In this document: positions 12,514-16,230 of the stretch, piece after piece | How positions within the stretch are numbered: the first letter of the stretch is position 1 | How the letters are laid out: every line of letters begins with the position of its first letter | Virus record (IMG/VR): IMGVR_UViG_2695420523_000020 | Direction: 5' to 3' (one strand) | DNA length: 19,354 bases | Source of the DNA: a virus | Taxonomy: Duplodnaviria; Heunggongvirae; Uroviricota; Caudoviricetes | The notes under the pieces: model-generated | The model's input: the letters and a program-made list of their open reading frames with translations, nothing else | The model's database searches: none | What the model was told of the DNA's origin: nothing | Position numbers and translations under genes: made by a program

Positions 12514-12936
12514 ATGGCAAAAGTATTTACATCAGAAGAGCGGGAAAAAATTAAAGGGCAGGTTGTTGAACTTGTACGTCTGAGCGGTCGCGAGACGTTA
12601 CGGCAACTGGAAGCCAAGACAGGTGCGACAAGATATCTGATGAGTGTTCTTGCCAGAGAGCTGGTTGCCAGTGGCGATTTATACAACTCCGGCTACGGGT
12701 TATTTCCGTCTGAACAGGCACGTAAGGACTGGATAAAGGCCCGCAAAAAACTATCCAGGGCAAAGGTGAAGAAACCATCTGCGGTTGATCCGGACCTTAT
12801 CTGGTCATTACCTGACGGAGAAATACGTCGCTACGACAGTCGCCTAAACATAATCTGTCGCGAGTGCCGGAAGAGCGAAGCTATGCAGCGTGTACTGGCT
12901 TTCTATCAGGGTAATTTTCAGGAGGTAGCGCAGTGA
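12514..12936 (+). CDS. Hypothetical protein (140 aa)
   Basis: ATG at 12514 preceded by SD GGAGG. Basic C-terminal half with a CxxC pair (ICRECRK). No recognisable family. Confidence 0.55.
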   Translation: MAKVFTSEEREKIKGQVVELVRLSGRETLRQLEAKTGATRYLMSVLARELVASGDLYNSGYGLFPSEQARKDWIKARKKLSRAKVKKPSAVDPDLIWSLPDGEIRRYDSRLNIICRECRKSEAMQRVLAFYQGNFQEVAQ

Positions 12937-13418
12937 GTGCACCGGCAACCATTCTTGATATGTGCTGTGGCAGTCGCATGTTCTGGTTTGATAAGAATGA
13001 CGAACTGGCGATATTTAGCGATATCAGAAAAGAAGAGCACACATTGTGTGATGGACGACGGCTGATAATTTGCCCTGACCTGATAGCAGATTTTCGTGCA
13101 TTACCATTTGCAGACGCATCGTTTCCGGTTGTTGTATTCGACCCTCCGCATCTTGAGCGTATTGGTGATAATGCCTGGATGGGAAAGAAATATGGACGGC
13201 TGAATAAAGATACCTGGCGTGATGATTTGCGGCAGGGATTTAAAGAAGCCTTTCGTGTGTTGTGGCCATACGGCGTTCTGATTTTTAAATGGAATGAAAC
13301 GCAAATACCTGTTCGCCAAATATTGGCACTGACCGACAGAAAGCCTGTTATCGGTCAACGAACAGGAAAGGGTGACAAGACCCACTGGATTATTTTTATG
13401 AAGGAGGGCAACCAGTGA
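12933..13418 (+). CDS. Small SAM-dependent methyltransferase-like protein (161 aa)
   Basis: GTG start overlapping the upstream stop (GTGA), SD AGGAGG 7 nt upstream. N-terminal LDMCCGSRMF resembles SAM-binding motif I and VVVFDPPH resembles the (D/N/S)PP(Y/F/H) motif IV of amino-methyltransferases. Confidence 0.5.
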   Translation: MSAPATILDMCCGSRMFWFDKNDELAIFSDIRKEEHTLCDGRRLIICPDLIADFRALPFADASFPVVVFDPPHLERIGDNAWMGKKYGRLNKDTWRDDLRQGFKEAFRVLWPYGVLIFKWNETQIPVRQILALTDRKPVIGQRTGKGDKTHWIIFMKEGNQ

Positions 13419-14062
13419 GCGAGATTGACTATCAGGCGTTGCGTGAGGCGGCAGAACGTGCAATCCCGGCAATGGAACGCCTGTTAATGTTGCCAGTTGA
13501 TGATGATTTGTTAACTGAACAGGAACTTAAGGATTACGGTGTGGATATTGATGCGCTCAACGCCTTCAAATTTCTGGCCGGACCAGAAACCGTGCTTGCA
13601 CTACTGGATGAACGGGAAAGAAACCAGCAATACATCAAACGCCGCGACCAGGAGAACGAGGATATTGCGCTAACGGTAGGGAAGCTGCGTGTTGAGCTGG
13701 AAGCCGCAGAGAAGCGCAACGCAAAATTACAAAGCGAGAATGCATACATCCGCAACCGGTTCAAAGAACTGGACCTATTAATCGGGAAAAACATTCTGGT
13801 CATGCAGGCTGCGATTATCGAATGGCAGGCAACTGGCGACGCTAAGAGCGGACTGGCATGGATTTATAACACACTGTTTGGCCCTGGCGAATTGCCGGAC
13901 GAATCTGAGAAAGATACCCAGGCCTACTTTAATCGCAAATATGCACCGATTGACGAAAAGCTTATGGCGCTTCACAAGTGGTTTTGGGAACAAAGTGAAG
14001 CCGAGCGCGCCGCTGGCATTCACATCAAAGGAGAGGAGCATGGAAATAAAACCAGAAGATGA
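13415..14062 (+). CDS. Ead/Ea22-like family protein (215 aa)
   Basis: GTG start overlapping the upstream stop, SD AAGGAGGG. Coiled-coil-rich; overall resemblance to Ead/Ea22-like prophage proteins as recalled. Confidence 0.55.
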   Translation: MSEIDYQALREAAERAIPAMERLLMLPVDDDLLTEQELKDYGVDIDALNAFKFLAGPETVLALLDERERNQQYIKRRDQENEDIALTVGKLRVELEAAEKRNAKLQSENAYIRNRFKELDLLIGKNILVMQAAIIEWQATGDAKSGLAWIYNTLFGPGELPDESEKDTQAYFNRKYAPIDEKLMALHKWFWEQSEAERAAGIHIKGEEHGNKTRR

Positions 14063-14396
14063 GTTAAGTAATATAGTTTTATTTCCGGTAAAAGAGGATG
14101 ACCCGCGTAATCAGGTTAATTTTCTTTATGAGCCATCGGAAAGACCATACTGCCATCACGCTTCTGTCAGGGTTGACGAAAAAGAGCGTAAGGTCCGCTG
14201 TAAAATCTGCGGTGCAGTTGTGGAGCCGTTTGACTGGATGCTCTCTGTGGCGAAAAGAGAAACCAGACTGGCAGATGATGTAAGGCTATTGCGCCAGGAG
14301 GAACAGGAAAGGCGGAAAAATATAGAAAAGTTAATTCAGATTGAGCGTAACGCGAAAGCGCGGATACGCCGGGCGAAAAAAAACAGAACTGAATAA
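14040..14396 (+). CDS. Hypothetical protein with putative zinc ribbon (118 aa)
   Basis: Internal ATG at 14040 with SD GGAGAGGAG, overlapping the Ea22-like 3' end by 23 nt. Cys/His cluster CHH...CKIC and a very basic C-terminus. The ORF-track start at 13878 lies inside the upstream gene. Confidence 0.5.
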   Translation: MEIKPEDELSNIVLFPVKEDDPRNQVNFLYEPSERPYCHHASVRVDEKERKVRCKICGAVVEPFDWMLSVAKRETRLADDVRLLRQEEQERRKNIEKLIQIERNAKARIRRAKKNRTE

Positions 14397-14687
14397 TTAA
14401 ATTTAGCACTGTAAATAAAATCAAATCCTTAACTGGAGGTATATCTATGTTAAATACACAGAAAACCATTAATGCGGAAAAATATAACGAAGGAAATTTT
14501 CTGAGCAGATTTTTAAAATTACTGGCGACGAGAATGCGGCAAAAAATGAATTAGAGCCGTGGACACCTGAAGGAGTCGAACCAAATTATTGCTGGTGGGA
14601 TGTTGATCCAGTTGATGCTGCAAATGAAGCTATGAGTTATCACAACGATTAATGTCAGGAGGCCGCCCGAAAGGGCGGTAATGAAAA

Positions 14688-15521
14688 GTGACTGAATTAA
14701 CCAAAGAGAAATTAATCGAAGAAGCCAAATTAAAAATAGCGATTGCGAAATGCTACCCCAATTCAGGGATGGCACGGGTAGAGGGCGAGTTATTCAAAAT
14801 TGCACTGGCATCGCTGGAAGCAGAACCAATAGGTGCTTTCCACATTGTAGAACAGCAAGTTGACGGAACAAGTTACTATATCAAGGATGGGGAATGGCCT
14901 ATTGATACTGGGATTATTGAAGTCTACGCCGCCTCACCGATGACGGTAGTGCTGAACGATGTATCTGGACCTCTTGCTCTTGCTTACAAAGAGCTTACAC
15001 CTGCGATTATGCGCAACCATATCGCTGTATTCGAACGATACGGAATAACCCCAAACGATAGCATTACTACAATTCATGCGCTTCGAATTGCGCTGGATGG
15101 CATAGAGCGGAGCGACGCCATGCTTCATGGACGTCAGCCATGCCATCAAATTACCGCCTCAATGGCAAAAGCTATTGCGCTTAAACTTGGTGCCGAACTG
15201 AATAACGAAGAAGCAGAGATTTTCGCGGATGGGTATAACACCGCCATGCTTCATGCCGAAAACTTTCGGGAAAATAAGAATTCGTCAACCAATAATTTTC
15301 GGATAACCTCGGAAACGTCAACCAACTCTCCGGCAATCCCTGATGAGGTGTTGTCCGCAATCCTGAAGGTCGCCAGGGTTCGTGCAGATTTCGATGCTTC
15401 TGAAGGTGACAGGCGAGGTATCGGTGGTTGTCTGGATGAGGCCGAGCAAGAACTTATCGTTACCATTAACAAATACGCCAGTCAGATCGCAGTAGAAGCG
15501 ATACAGGGGGCGCACCAATGA
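14688..15521 (+). CDS. Hypothetical protein (277 aa), no recognisable family
   Basis: Longest ORF in an otherwise gene-poor stretch. GTG start at 14688 just after a ccgccc-GAAA-gggcgg hairpin. Preceded by ~290 bp of AT-rich ORF-less DNA. Confidence 0.5.
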   Translation: MTELTKEKLIEEAKLKIAIAKCYPNSGMARVEGELFKIALASLEAEPIGAFHIVEQQVDGTSYYIKDGEWPIDTGIIEVYAASPMTVVLNDVSGPLALAYKELTPAIMRNHIAVFERYGITPNDSITTIHALRIALDGIERSDAMLHGRQPCHQITASMAKAIALKLGAELNNEEAEIFADGYNTAMLHAENFRENKNSSTNNFRITSETSTNSPAIPDEVLSAILKVARVRADFDASEGDRRGIGGCLDEAEQELIVTINKYASQIAVEAIQGAHQ

Positions 15522-15595
15522 GCCGGCCCGATGCATTTGCAGGCGTTGCTATAGCTATTGCTTTTCTAGTATATGTTATTTGTCGGTGGGGGTAA
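15518..15595 (+). CDS. Tiny hydrophobic peptide (25 aa), translationally coupled to the 277-aa gene
   Basis: ATG overlaps the upstream stop (ATGA). Translation MSRPDAFAGVAIAIAFLVYVICRWG is a single predicted transmembrane helix. Confidence 0.3.
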   Translation: MSRPDAFAGVAIAIAFLVYVICRWG

Positions 15596-15630
15596 AAACG
15601 TTCGCCGGAATTCACACCAAGGGAGGGAAT

Positions 15631-15735
15631 ATGTCGGATGATATTTCACTGGTAATGGAAGGCGCTCTGGCTGTTATTGCTGTTGTGGGTGTTTACTGCC
15701 TGGTTGTGTTTTTGATGGATCGCCTGGGGAACTGA
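15631..15735 (+). CDS. Small membrane peptide (34 aa)
   Basis: Strong SD AAGGGAGGG 5 nt before ATG 15631. Translation MSDDISLVMEGALAVIAVVGVYCLVVFLMDRLGN has one hydrophobic helix. Confidence 0.45.
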   Translation: MSDDISLVMEGALAVIAVVGVYCLVVFLMDRLGN

Positions 15736-15864
15736 ATTCATTCCGTATGGGAATTCCCATATCGGGCAAAAACGGTTTGCTGTAAAGCGAGAGTTAAGTA
15801 GAATTGCTGCGGGTGCTTGAGGCTGTCTGCCTCGGGCATGCCGCCGTAAGGCAGACAGAGAAAA

Positions 15865-15935
15865 GCCCCAGTTAACATTACGCGTCCGGCAAGACGCTTA
15901 ACATTAATCTGAGGCCATATCTATGCGACACATAG
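15865..15935 (-). ncRNA. Sok-like antisense RNA (approximate position)
   Basis: Inferred from hok/sok architecture: antisense to the hok leader around the mok-like start. Possible minus-strand promoter TTGACC-17-CTAATC inside the mok/hok leader. Exact ends not determinable from sequence alone. Confidence 0.3.
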
Positions 15936-15982
15936 AGATTAGCCTCTTACGGACCGAAAGGTCAAGGAGAAGCAGGCTATGA
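15923..15982 (+). CDS. mok-like leader ORF (19 codons) overlapping the hok start
   Basis: ATG at 15923; its stop TGA overlaps the hok ATG (ATGA). Much shorter than plasmid R1 mok. Confidence 0.35.
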   Translation: MRHIEISLLRTERSRRSRL

Positions 15983-16134
15983 AGCAGCAAAAGGCGATGT
16001 TAATCGCTCTGATCGTCATCTGTTTAACCGTCATAGTGACGGCACTGGTAACGAGGAAAGACCTCTGCGAGGTACGAATCCGAACCGGGCAGACGGAGGT
16101 CGCTGTCTTCGTAGACTACGAATCTAGAGAGTAA
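15979..16134 (+). CDS. hok: Hok/Gef-family type I toxin (51 aa)
   Basis: Translation MKQQKAMLIALIVICLTVIVTALVTRKDLCEVRIRTGQTEVAVFVDYESRE is a clear Hok-family member (close to HokD/RelF as recalled). SD AAGGAGAAG upstream. The upstream leader gcttgaggctgtctgcctc resembles the 5' end of R1 hok mRNA. Confidence 0.85.
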   Translation: MKQQKAMLIALIVICLTVIVTALVTRKDLCEVRIRTGQTEVAVFVDYESRE

Positions 16135-16204
16135 GAGTGACCAGGCGGGAGAGTAATCTCCCGCCACCTCTGATGTGTCAGGCATCCTCAATGCACCCAC
16201 ACTT

Positions 16205-16230
16205 AACCCGCTTCGGCGGGTTTTTGTTTT
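16205..16230 (+). terminator. Rho-independent terminator of the hok transcript
   Basis: cccgc-ttcg-gcggg hairpin followed by TTTTTGTTTT. Confidence 0.6.

What the first reader, a model, noticed from the sequence alone, without database searches (positions are those of the whole stretch)
14397..15735. Unknown 277-aa protein plus two tiny membrane peptides, preceded by an AT-rich ORF-less gap and abutting hok/sok
After the tightly coupled early operon ends at 14396 there are ~290 bp of AT-rich DNA with no ORF, then a perfect ccgccc-GAAA-gggcgg hairpin (14663-14678) immediately before a GTG-initiated 277-aa ORF with no recognisable motifs. Two very short hydrophobic ORFs follow (25 aa coupled by ATGA overlap; 34 aa with a strong SD). 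The block sits where other lambdoid phages carry accessory toxin-antitoxin or defence cargo (relBE sits before hokD in Qin), so it is a candidate uncharacterised accessory, defence or abortive-infection module.
Basis: partly seen in the sequence, partly recalled or inferred. Interest (0 to 1): 0.65.

Follow-up and report, generated by a model that had tools for sequence, protein, structure and literature searches.

The report
Ordinary mosaic prophage accessory genes
This stretch is not a hidden defence module but a patchwork of common lambdoid-prophage accessory genes of unknown function: a frameshifted 70-codon gene, a truncated Eaa/DUF551-family protein already in the databases, and two small, conserved membrane-peptide genes lying just before a hok/sok toxin-antitoxin cassette.

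Summary
The features exist at the stated coordinates, but the interpretation mostly fails.

- **The "ORF-less gap" (14397-14687)** is a 70-codon phage gene (phrog_4659). It is annotated at the matching place in most of 636 E. coli genomes and is broken here by a 7-nt deletion.
- **The 277-aa ORF** is not unrecognisable. The identical protein occurs on 595 public contigs, named "DUF551 domain-containing protein" or "Eaa2". It belongs to the large mosaic Eaa/DUF551 family. An in-frame deletion removed its DUF551 domain but kept the last five codons and the ATGA overlap.
- **The 25-aa ORF** belongs to a mostly unannotated peptide family (xWPEAF…RWG). It is coupled by ATGA to Eaa/DUF551 genes in at least 93 phage records, including 933W. 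Its pN/pS is 0.35.
- **The 34-aa ORF** is a separate 174-bp indel module that travels with hok/sok. Its pN/pS is 0.44.
- **The hairpin** is part of a conserved SD-hairpin-start element found before several unrelated genes.

The four parts have independent distributions. None matches a defence model, and no function is known for any of them. My best reading is ordinary early-operon accessory genes expressed on induction. The small peptides are probably real inner-membrane proteins. Interest is low to moderate.

The parts
14447..14652 (+). Frameshifted copy of a conserved 70-aa phage gene (phrog_4659; WP_032206194-like). SD GGAGG at 14435-14439, ATG at 14447, 7-nt deletion after about 14490, premature stop at 14552-14554; the original stop is TAA at 14650-14652.
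   Evidence: Relatives L001 and L002 carry an intact 70-aa ORF. The alignment shows the 7-nt gap. PHROG E = 3.9e-51. The downstream frame reads KFSEQIFKITGDEN...SYHND*. 636 genomes hold this segment; the best full-length matches listed are 6-7 nt longer and none is identical.
14655..14680 (+). Conserved SD-plus-hairpin element TCAGGAGG-CCGCCC-GAAA-GGGCGG-TA. AGGAGG (14657-14662) sits flush with the 5' base of the stem, and the GTG start lies 8 nt after the stem.
   Evidence: Folding gives -17.4 kcal/mol, z = -3.8. There is no U-tract and it is not called as a terminator. The same element precedes at least 4 unrelated genes, each with its start codon 5-8 nt after the stem.
14688..15521 (+). 277-aa protein of the Eaa/DUF551 family ('Eaa2') that lacks the DUF551 domain. 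It is acidic (pI 4.9) and built of helical modules joined by the family linker NFRENKNSSTNNFR...STNSPAIP.
   Evidence: 6589 homologues, 99-100% identical database entries named DUF551/Eaa2. No Pfam hit here, whereas full-length relatives have PF04448 at their extreme C-terminus. Module map by BLASTP. AF2 pLDDT is 47; only residues 1-44 are confident.
15486..15521 (+). Deletion junction. The sequence follows the family linker (...NKYASQ-IAVEAI) up to 15503, then jumps to the last five codons (QGAHQ), the stop codon and the ATGA of a DUF551 gene end.
   Evidence: Anchored DNA comparison with the 409-aa full-length relative in L061. Alignment A2 against intact DUF551 gene ends. The same tail occurs in the 187-aa O157:H7 variant.
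15518..15595 (+). smORF1: a 25-aa single-pass membrane peptide (MSRPDAFAGVAIAIAFLVYVICRWG), translationally coupled by an ATGA overlap. It belongs to the xWPEAF...(C/F)RWG family.
   Evidence: An ATGA-coupled ORF of 25-28 aa is present in 122 of 124 sampled loci, with an in-frame 6-nt indel. Diverged members sit after DUF551 genes in other contexts. tblastn finds it in 93 phage records, including 933W. pN/pS is 0.35 against 0.90 and 1.53 off-frame. KD(17) = 2.66.
15594..15774 (+). 174-bp indel module carrying smORF2, bounded by AAAAACG direct repeats at 15594-15600 and 15768-15774. It is absent in 933W-type loci.
   Evidence: Repeat positions. In the alignment of window, 933W and mEp460, and in loci L168 and L243, smORF1 abuts the hok promoter directly.
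15631..15735 (+). smORF2: a 34-aa single-pass membrane peptide with an acidic N-terminus (MSDDISLVMEGALAVIAVVGVYCLVVFLMDRLGN). SD GGGAGGG at 15621-15627.
   Evidence: PGAP annotates it as WP_001278459. The exact sequence occurs on at least 1000 contigs. In the aligned unique sequences 18 third-position columns vary, against 9 first-position and 7 second-position columns. pN/pS is 0.44 against 0.74 and 1.36 off-frame. Diverged 29-30-aa homologues lie just upstream of the hok promoter in mEp460, Tritos and HannyBb.
15742..15766 (+). Near-perfect palindrome/hairpin CCGTATGGGAATTCCCATATCGG between smORF2 and the hok promoter. It has no U-tract.
   Evidence: Folding gives -12.8 kcal/mol, z = -3.5. 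It is a perfect 22-bp palindrome in L004 and L005. It is not called as a terminator.
15776..16222 (+). Adjacent hok/sok cassette, outside the finding. Inferred hok promoter TTTGCT-17-TAGAAT at 15776-15804, conserved leader/sok region at 15811-15981, hok at 15979-16134, terminator at 16205-16222.
   Evidence: Rfam RF01794 at 105.9 bits. Hok ORF. Terminator scan. The promoter is read by homology with mEp460, where TTGGCG-17-TAGAAT was detected.

Best explanation
The block is the mosaic distal part of a lambdoid prophage early (pR, nin-type) operon. It is made of four independently shuffled accessory pieces, not one system.

1. **A dead gene.** A copy of a common 70-aa phage gene is inactivated here by a 7-nt deletion.
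2. **A truncated Eaa/DUF551-family gene.** An old in-frame deletion removed its C-terminal DUF551 domain. The deletion joined the linker '...AEPI' to the last five codons, so the gene still ends in the SD-containing tail and ATGA overlap that feed the next ORF. Its ribosome-binding site is a conserved AGGAGG-hairpin-start arrangement. The folded GAAA-tetraloop hairpin would bring the SD to a working distance of about 8 nt from the GTG (inferred).
3. **smORF1.** This 25-aa single-pass inner-membrane peptide is translated by termination-reinitiation at AUGA. It is the conserved partner of Eaa/DUF551 gene ends.
4. **smORF2.** This 34-aa single-pass peptide has its own strong SD. It sits on a 174-bp indel module that travels with the upstream flank of hok/sok.

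Shown here: homology, domain loss, the deletion junction, conservation and purifying selection on both small ORFs, independent distributions, and absence of defence signatures.

Inferred: co-transcription from the early operon on induction, membrane insertion of the peptides, and the hairpin-bridged RBS. The biochemical roles of Eaa and the peptides remain unknown.
For: - **Gap gene.**
- **Eaa membership and database identity.** One search gives 6589 hits, including 'Eaa protein' and DUF551 names. One search finds the exact sequence on 595 contigs, named 'Eaa2'.
- **Domain loss.** The window protein has no Pfam hit. Relatives P0018 and P0047 have PF04448 at their last ~66 residues.
- **Junction.**
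- **Synteny.** Eaa/DUF551 - smORF1 - smORF2 - hokD recurs in L001-L005. In 124 viral loci, 122 show ATGA coupling and 102 of 111 evaluable loci have hok downstream.
- **smORF1 in other contexts.** It occurs after DUF551 genes and is followed by a terminator, other genes or hok. In 933W it is unannotated and lies between ST933Wp77 and sokW/hokW.
- **smORF2 with hok.** Homologues sit upstream of hok promoters without any Eaa gene.
- **Coding tests.**
- **Independent distributions.** 25, 636 and 608 genomes.
- **No known signatures.** No PADLOC, NCBIfam or PDB hits. No extra Rfam family and no above-chance promoter or terminator inside the block. Minus-strand ORFs have no family matches.
- **Hairpin element.** It is conserved before unrelated genes at a fixed geometry.
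Against: - No expression data were available, so transcription from pR and translation of the small ORFs are inferred from sequence only.
- The Eaa gene shows weak constraint (pN/pS 0.5-1.6). It could be drifting or diversifying rather than simply 'ordinary'.
- The tight, repeated linkage of smORF1 and smORF2 to hok/sok could reflect a functional link that this 'independent pieces' reading underrates.
- The structure model is too poor (pLDDT 47) to exclude a distant fold-level match to a known function.
Confidence: 0.62

Rival explanations
1. The two membrane peptides work together with hok/sok as one membrane-targeting cassette at the end of the early operon. On induction, read-through from the Eaa-smORF operon runs into the co-oriented hok locus and silences the convergent sok promoter. 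Hok is then made, and the peptides modulate Hok-mediated membrane damage or lysis timing.
For: - smORF1's stop abuts the hok promoter with no terminator in 933W, L168 and L243.
- smORF2 homologues sit 10-40 nt upstream of the hok promoter in three unrelated phage contexts.
- hok lies downstream in 102 of 111 loci.
- In Sp5, HokW is produced on induction because sokW RNA disappears for an unknown reason, and this aids phage release (PMC8621323).
- Both peptides are predicted single-pass TM.
Against: - smORF1 also occurs without hok, followed by a terminator or other genes.
- hok/sok occurs without either peptide, for example relBE-hokD in Qin (my own knowledge, not tested here).
- smORF2 shows no sequence similarity to Hok.
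- There is no direct evidence of read-through or of any interaction.
Confidence: 0.17
2. One reading: the block is an uncharacterised anti-phage defence, superinfection-exclusion or abortive-infection module. Eaa277 would act as sensor and the small hydrophobic peptides as membrane-disrupting effectors.
For: - The block lies in a variable accessory slot next to a toxin-antitoxin cassette.
- Small TM peptides are plausible effectors.
- The Eaa family evolves fast (pN/pS about 0.7-1.6), as arms-race proteins do.
Against: - No PADLOC model matches any of the four products.
- The parts are not co-inherited.
- The gene order places them in a lytic early operon rather than under a lysogen-expressed promoter, and no above-chance promoter was found.
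- Both peptides lack the cationic character typical of pore-forming type I toxins. smORF2 has net charge -3 and smORF1 about +1.
Confidence: 0.07
3. The block is decaying junk. A cryptic prophage is losing genes, the 277-aa ORF is a non-functional remnant as PGAP's pseudogene call implies, and the small ORFs merely survive by linkage.
For: - The 70-aa gene is frameshifted.
- PGAP labels the last 96 codons of the ORF a DUF551 pseudogene fragment.
- The DUF551 domain is deleted.
- The Eaa gene is under weak constraint.
- The window's smORF1 allele has lost the conserved W and two residues.
Against: - The deletion is in frame and old. It is shared by two different N-terminal architectures and 27 of 124 loci.
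- The 277-aa ORF is intact on 595 contigs.
- Both small ORFs show frame-specific purifying selection and conserved starts and stops across diverged phages.
Confidence: 0.14

Closest known systems
Eaa / DUF551 (PF04448) family of lambdoid phage early proteins (P22 Eaa-like; 'Eaa2' of E. coli O145:H28 RM13516; K-12 CPS-53 YfdS and the Ea22_V2 variant share the DUF551 domain)
   Same: High-scoring homology over residues 1-272. It has the same N-terminal IALASLEAEP module and the same low-complexity linker NFRENxxSSTNNFR..STNxP. It sits in an early operon and has the same gene end with an ATGA-coupled small ORF.
   Different: It lacks the eponymous C-terminal DUF551 domain through an in-frame deletion. 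The family itself has no established function (PMC10834534 and PMC4776307).
hokW-sokW of Stx phage 933W / Sakai Sp5 (type I toxin-antitoxin)
   Same: The same local architecture occurs in 933W: an Ead/Ea22-like gene, then an Eaa-like gene, then the ATGA-coupled smORF1, then sok/mok/hok in the same orientation. The hok leader is highly similar.
   Different: The window has an extra 174-bp smORF2 module between smORF1 and the hok promoter. The cassette lies in the pR-side nin-type region rather than in the 933W Ead/Ea22-side early region. The mok frame is shifted by -1.
Hairpin-bridged ribosome-binding sites of phage T4 genes 38 and 25 (named from my own knowledge; not tested here)
   Same: The SD and start codon are about 25 nt apart in the linear sequence, with a stable hairpin between them. 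Folding the hairpin would reduce the effective spacing to 5-8 nt. This geometry is conserved before several unrelated genes.
   Different: There is no experimental evidence here and no covariation, because the stem sequence is invariant. The element could equally be a recombination linker at mosaic junctions or an mRNA-stabilising hairpin.
Small single-pass inner-membrane proteins and type I toxins of enterobacteria (for example Hok, TisB, Ibs, AcrZ, MgtS)
   Same: Similar size (25-34 aa), a single hydrophobic helix, and location next to a type I TA locus.
   Different: No sequence similarity to Hok or to any Pfam, NCBIfam or PHROG model. No cognate antisense RNA was detected. smORF2 is acidic, unlike most membrane toxins.

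Membership tests
Eaa/DUF551 protein family | Significant sequence similarity over most of the length to proteins annotated Eaa or DUF551 | tested here: met
   One search gives E = 4e-174 to 1e-60 for 120 listed hits with 98% coverage for many. One search finds the exact sequence, named DUF551 domain-containing / Eaa2.
Eaa/DUF551 protein family | Presence of the Pfam DUF551 (PF04448) domain | tested here: not met
   No Pfam hit at E <= 0.1. Relatives P0018 and P0047 score 4.5e-21 and 1.8e-20 at their C-termini. The domain-coding DNA is deleted here.
Eaa/DUF551 protein family | Family linker and junction motifs (AMLx..NFRENxxSSTNNFR..STNxP) bounding exchangeable modules | tested here: met
   Motifs at residues 144, 186, 192 and 200. 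Module combinations can be seen in P0003, P0010, P0016, P0047 and P0101.
Eaa/DUF551 protein family | Location in the early region of a lambdoid (pro)phage | tested here: met
   Neighbours are replication genes, an Ead/Ea22-like gene, DUF1367, DUF1364 and Q-type genes.
Known anti-phage defence systems (PADLOC-DB v2) | Any component matching a defence-system profile | tested here: not met
   No meaningful hit for the 277-aa, 70-aa, 25-aa or 34-aa products. The only hit is a chance-level one, E = 0.022 to Cmr5 on the TM segment.
Type I toxin-antitoxin (for smORF1 and smORF2) | Small hydrophobic membrane peptide | tested here: met
   KD(17) is 2.66 and 2.95, with a single TM span in each.
Type I toxin-antitoxin (for smORF1 and smORF2) | Cis-encoded or adjacent antisense RNA with its own promoter and terminator | tested here: inconclusive
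   No Rfam family besides sok. One minus-strand promoter-like match lies at 15596-15568, but the total number of matches is not above shuffles, and there is no terminator.
Type I toxin-antitoxin (for smORF1 and smORF2) | Toxicity on overexpression that is neutralised by the RNA | not testable with these tools
   Needs cloning and growth assays.
Intrinsic (Rho-independent) terminator (for the hairpin at 14663-14678) | GC-rich stem followed by a U-tract | tested here: not met
   The stem is present, but the tail is UAAUGAAAAG. It is not reported by the terminator scan.
hok/sok locus (adjacent element) | Hok ORF, conserved leader/sok region and terminator | tested here: met
   Rfam RF01794 scores 105.9 bits against a gathering score of 59. 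The 51-aa Hok ORF is, and the terminator at 16205-16222 is.

The most novel reading that the evidence does not exclude
smORF1 (xWPEAF-TM-RWG, 25-28 aa) and smORF2 (TM-YCLxxxLMDRLxx, 29-34 aa) are two previously undescribed families of phage small inner-membrane proteins. They are functionally tied to the end of the early operon and to hok/sok.

In this reading, read-through from the Eaa-smORF operon into the co-oriented hok locus is what removes Sok RNA on prophage induction, which is the unexplained step in Takada et al. 2021. The peptides then tune Hok-dependent membrane damage and the timing of lysis and phage release in Stx and other lambdoid phages.
Probability: 0.12. Interest if true: 0.55.

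Novelty: already known. Interest (0 to 1): 0.27.

Why it matters
As a defence candidate it matters little. The large ORF is a catalogued member of a very common phage family, and the 'gap' is a broken gene.

Three by-products are worth keeping:
1. **A mostly unannotated peptide gene.** A 25-28-aa membrane peptide is translationally coupled to Eaa/DUF551 genes in at least 93 phage records, including the reference Stx phage 933W.
2. **A second peptide family next to hok promoters.** Together with the terminator-less, co-oriented junction to the early operon, this gives a concrete, testable idea for how prophage induction switches on Hok.
3. **A conserved SD-hairpin-start element at mosaic gene junctions.** It may be a hairpin-bridged ribosome-binding site.

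None of these is established here.

Tried and rejected
- **Structure route.** AlphaFold2 with a 54-sequence family alignment gave pLDDT 47 and pTM 0.34; only the N-terminal helical hairpin (residues 1-44) was confident. Foldseek against BFVD gave no match at E <= 0.001. I ran no further search on this model.
- **PDB sequence search.** Only chance hits at E = 1.4.
- **Family libraries.** Pfam, NCBIfam and PADLOC gave nothing for the four products. PHROGs gave only 'unknown function' families.
- **smORF2 as a truncated Hok paralogue.** Rejected; there is no alignment.
- **Eaa277 related to the neighbouring Ead/Ea22-like protein.** Rejected; E >= 1.
- **Hairpin as a terminator.** Rejected; there is no U-tract.
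- **Minus-strand ORFs (71-100 aa) inside the block.** No family matches, so I treat them as chance ORFs.
- **Literature.** Nothing was found on these small ORFs, and no function is reported for Eaa or DUF551.
Full report
**Context.** The window is a lambdoid prophage of a STEC-like E. coli, inserted next to ryeA/ryeB. It carries RalA/RalR, C4/isrK RNAs, sok, two tRNAs and STnc100. The finding lies between replication and early genes and a nin-type region. Upstream are an orphan methyltransferase (12933-13418), an Ead/Ea22-like gene (13415-14062) and a zinc-ribbon gene ending at 14396. Downstream are hok/sok, DUF1367 and related genes.

**The 'ORF-less' gap, 14397-14687.** In the closest genomes, PGAP annotates a 70-aa hypothetical protein at the corresponding place (L001, 98.5% identical; L002). 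That protein matches phrog_4659 end to end, E = 3.9e-51. The window keeps its SD (GGAGG), its ATG at 14447 and its first 15 codons. A 7-nt deletion then shifts the frame, leaving a 35-aa stub. The remaining 52 codons are still readable in another frame down to the original TAA at 14650-14652. The segment occurs in 636 complete genomes at 80% coverage or more. The best full-length matches are 96.6-97.3% identical and 6-7 nt longer, so among those listed the deletion appears private to this sequence. In many of those genomes the next gene is a DUF4014 gene rather than an Eaa gene. The gap is somewhat AT-rich, 37.8% GC against 46.9% for the window, but it is coding DNA gone dead.

**The hairpin.** ccgccc-GAAA-gggcgg is exactly at 14663-14678, with an extra G-U pair. 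The 41-nt context folds at -17.4 kcal/mol (z = -3.8), and no shuffle folds as well. It has no U-tract and is not called as a terminator. The element TCAGGAG(G/A)-hairpin-TA is invariant in many related loci, where it precedes at least four unrelated genes. In each case AGGAG is flush with the 5' base of the stem and a start codon lies 5-8 nt after the stem. An O157:H7 relative has ATG where the window has GTG 14688, which fixes the start codon. Unfolded, the SD is 25 nt from the GTG. Folded, it is about 8 nt away. My inference is a hairpin-bridged RBS, as described for T4 genes 38 and 25 (my own knowledge). It may also serve as a junction linker for mosaic recombination.

**The 277-aa ORF.** Pfam, NCBIfam, PADLOC and PDB give nothing. 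A homology search, however, gives 6589 proteins at E <= 0.001. They are named 'DUF551 domain-containing protein', 'Eaa protein' or 'putative phage protein'. The identical sequence is on 595 contigs, including 'Eaa2 [E. coli O145:H28 RM13516]'.

The family is strongly modular:
- a shared N-terminal region ending in IALASLEAEP;
- exchangeable 40-60-aa modules;
- a recurrent low-complexity linker (AMLQxGNFRENxNSSTNNFREIxETSTNxPxxP);
- in full-length members, a C-terminal DUF551 domain, for example residues 357-422 of the 426-aa P0018.

The window protein lacks that domain. DNA comparison with a 409-aa relative (L061) shows the reason. The window follows the linker region up to ...GCAGTAGAAGCGATA (15503). 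It then continues with the last five codons, the stop and the ATGA of a DUF551 gene end. The breakpoint lies next to a CAGAACCG microhomology. The same tail occurs on a different N-terminal architecture, the 187-aa O157:H7 type, and in 27 of 124 sampled loci. The deletion is therefore old and has been passed around.

PGAP calls the last 96 codons a DUF551 pseudogene fragment. Constraint on the gene is weak, with pN/pS of 0.5-1.6. The protein is acidic, pI 4.9. The AF2 model is poor (pLDDT 47), with only an N-terminal helical hairpin confident, and Foldseek was uninformative. No function is known for Eaa or DUF551 in the literature I could read (PMC10834534, PMC4776307, PMC9879122).

**smORF1, 15518-15595.** This ORF is not a chance ORF. 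In 122 of 124 loci sampled through smORF2, an ORF of 25-28 aa starts at the ATGA that ends the upstream Eaa/DUF551 gene. The three main alleles differ by an in-frame 6-nt indel. An independent sample was taken through the DUF551 motif WMPLPEPP. There, diverged members such as MSWPEAFTTVGIAMAVALVVYSICRWG again follow DUF551 genes by ATGA. They are followed variously by an intrinsic terminator, by other genes or directly by hok/sok. tblastn finds the family in 93 phage records. In 933W it lies unannotated between ST933Wp77 and sokW/hokW. Across 14 unique sequences pN/pS is 0.35 in frame, against 0.90 and 1.53 in the other frames. The last codons of intact DUF551 genes (CAG GAG GTG) form an AGGAGG about 7-8 nt before the smORF1 ATG. 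This may explain why the deletion variant kept that tail. Only a few genome annotations call this ORF, and the window's 25-aa allele is not in the protein collection.

**smORF2, 15631-15735.** PGAP annotates it, and the exact peptide is on at least 1000 contigs. In the aligned unique sequences, variable columns are 9, 7 and 18 at codon positions 1, 2 and 3. It sits on a 174-bp segment bounded by AAAAACG repeats at 15594 and 15768. That segment is missing in 933W, L168 and L243, where the smORF1 stop runs straight into the hok promoter. Diverged 29-30-aa homologues (MVLVLKCALAITAVMAIYCLAIVLMDRLSD) lie immediately upstream of the hok promoter in mEp460, Tritos and HannyBb, with no Eaa gene nearby. 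pN/pS is 0.44 in frame, against 0.74 and 1.36 off-frame. smORF2 therefore travels with hok/sok, while smORF1 travels with Eaa/DUF551 gene ends. Both peptides are predicted single-pass TM, and smORF2 has an acidic N-terminus. smORF2 shows no similarity to Hok.

**Is it one module?** No. The complete block is found in 25 complete genomes, its left part in 636 and its right part in 608. No product matches a defence model. There is no extra RNA family and no above-chance promoter or terminator inside the block. Minus-strand ORFs have no relatives.

The most economical reading is a string of ordinary early-operon accessory genes, one of them dead and one truncated, ending in two small membrane-peptide genes and followed by hok/sok. 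Transcription from pR on induction, AUGA-coupled translation of smORF1 and membrane insertion are inferred, not shown.

**What remains open.** The repeated, terminator-less, co-oriented junction between the early operon and hok/sok is suggestive. In Sp5, HokW is made on induction because sokW RNA vanishes for unknown reasons, and this aids phage release (PMC8621323). Read-through into the convergent sok promoter, with the peptides as co-expressed membrane partners, is a testable idea. I give it low probability.

**Verdict.** The main feature is already known. Interest is low to moderate, resting on the small-ORF families and the RBS element.

Noticed in passing
window 14655-14680; L003 1953-1993; L005, L011, L027, L041, L082: An invariant ~28-nt element, TCAGGAG(G/A)-CCGCCCGAAAGGGCGG-TA, precedes at least four unrelated genes. 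The SD is flush with the 5' base of the stem, and the start codon lies 5-8 nt after the stem. It is a candidate hairpin-bridged RBS and/or mosaic-junction linker.
   Followed up: partly
window 15594-15774; L255 (933W) 1801-1900; L168, L243: The 34-aa ORF lies on a 174-bp insertion/deletion bounded by AAAAACG direct repeats. 933W-type loci lack it, and there the 27-aa ORF's stop abuts the hok promoter.
   Followed up: yes
L255 (phage 933W, NC_000924.1 58832-58909, minus strand): The reference Stx2 phage 933W carries an unannotated 27-aa ORF, MTWPEAFANVGTVMAVVLVVYSICRWR. It is ATGA-coupled to ST933Wp77 and lies directly upstream of sokW/hokW.
   Followed up: partly
window 15923-15982: The mok-like leader ORF is 56 nt (not 57) from its ATG to the hok ATG. 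It is therefore out of frame with hok and ends in a TGA overlapping the hok start. In mEp460 and 933W, mok is in frame with hok as an N-terminal extension.
   Followed up: no
window 15742-15766: A near-perfect palindrome, CCGTATGGGAATTCCCATATCGG, lies between the 34-aa ORF and the hok promoter. It is a perfect 22-bp palindrome in L004 and L005. It folds at -12.8 kcal/mol and has no U-tract. It could be an insulator hairpin or a protein-binding site.
   Followed up: partly
window 13415-14062 and 12933-13418: Residues 95-195 of the Ead/Ea22-like protein match the PADLOC 'DpdH' model at E = 3e-37. The upstream 161-aa ORF matches type II/orphan methyltransferase models at E = 9e-73.
   Followed up: no
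L147, L234, L162, L166: A third small hydrophobic ORF family of about 40 aa (MNKCNALLYAMVIGFGLAAGIRVYIAWESLINLAWSAIRG and relatives) also follows DUF551 genes or lies nearby in other lambdoid contigs.
   Followed up: no
window 14688-15521 compared with L003, L061, L100: The Eaa gene shows pN/pS of 0.5-1.6, and 1.64 over the last 95 codons against the O157:H7 variant. This is much weaker constraint than on the two small ORFs, and is consistent with relaxed or diversifying selection.
   Followed up: partly
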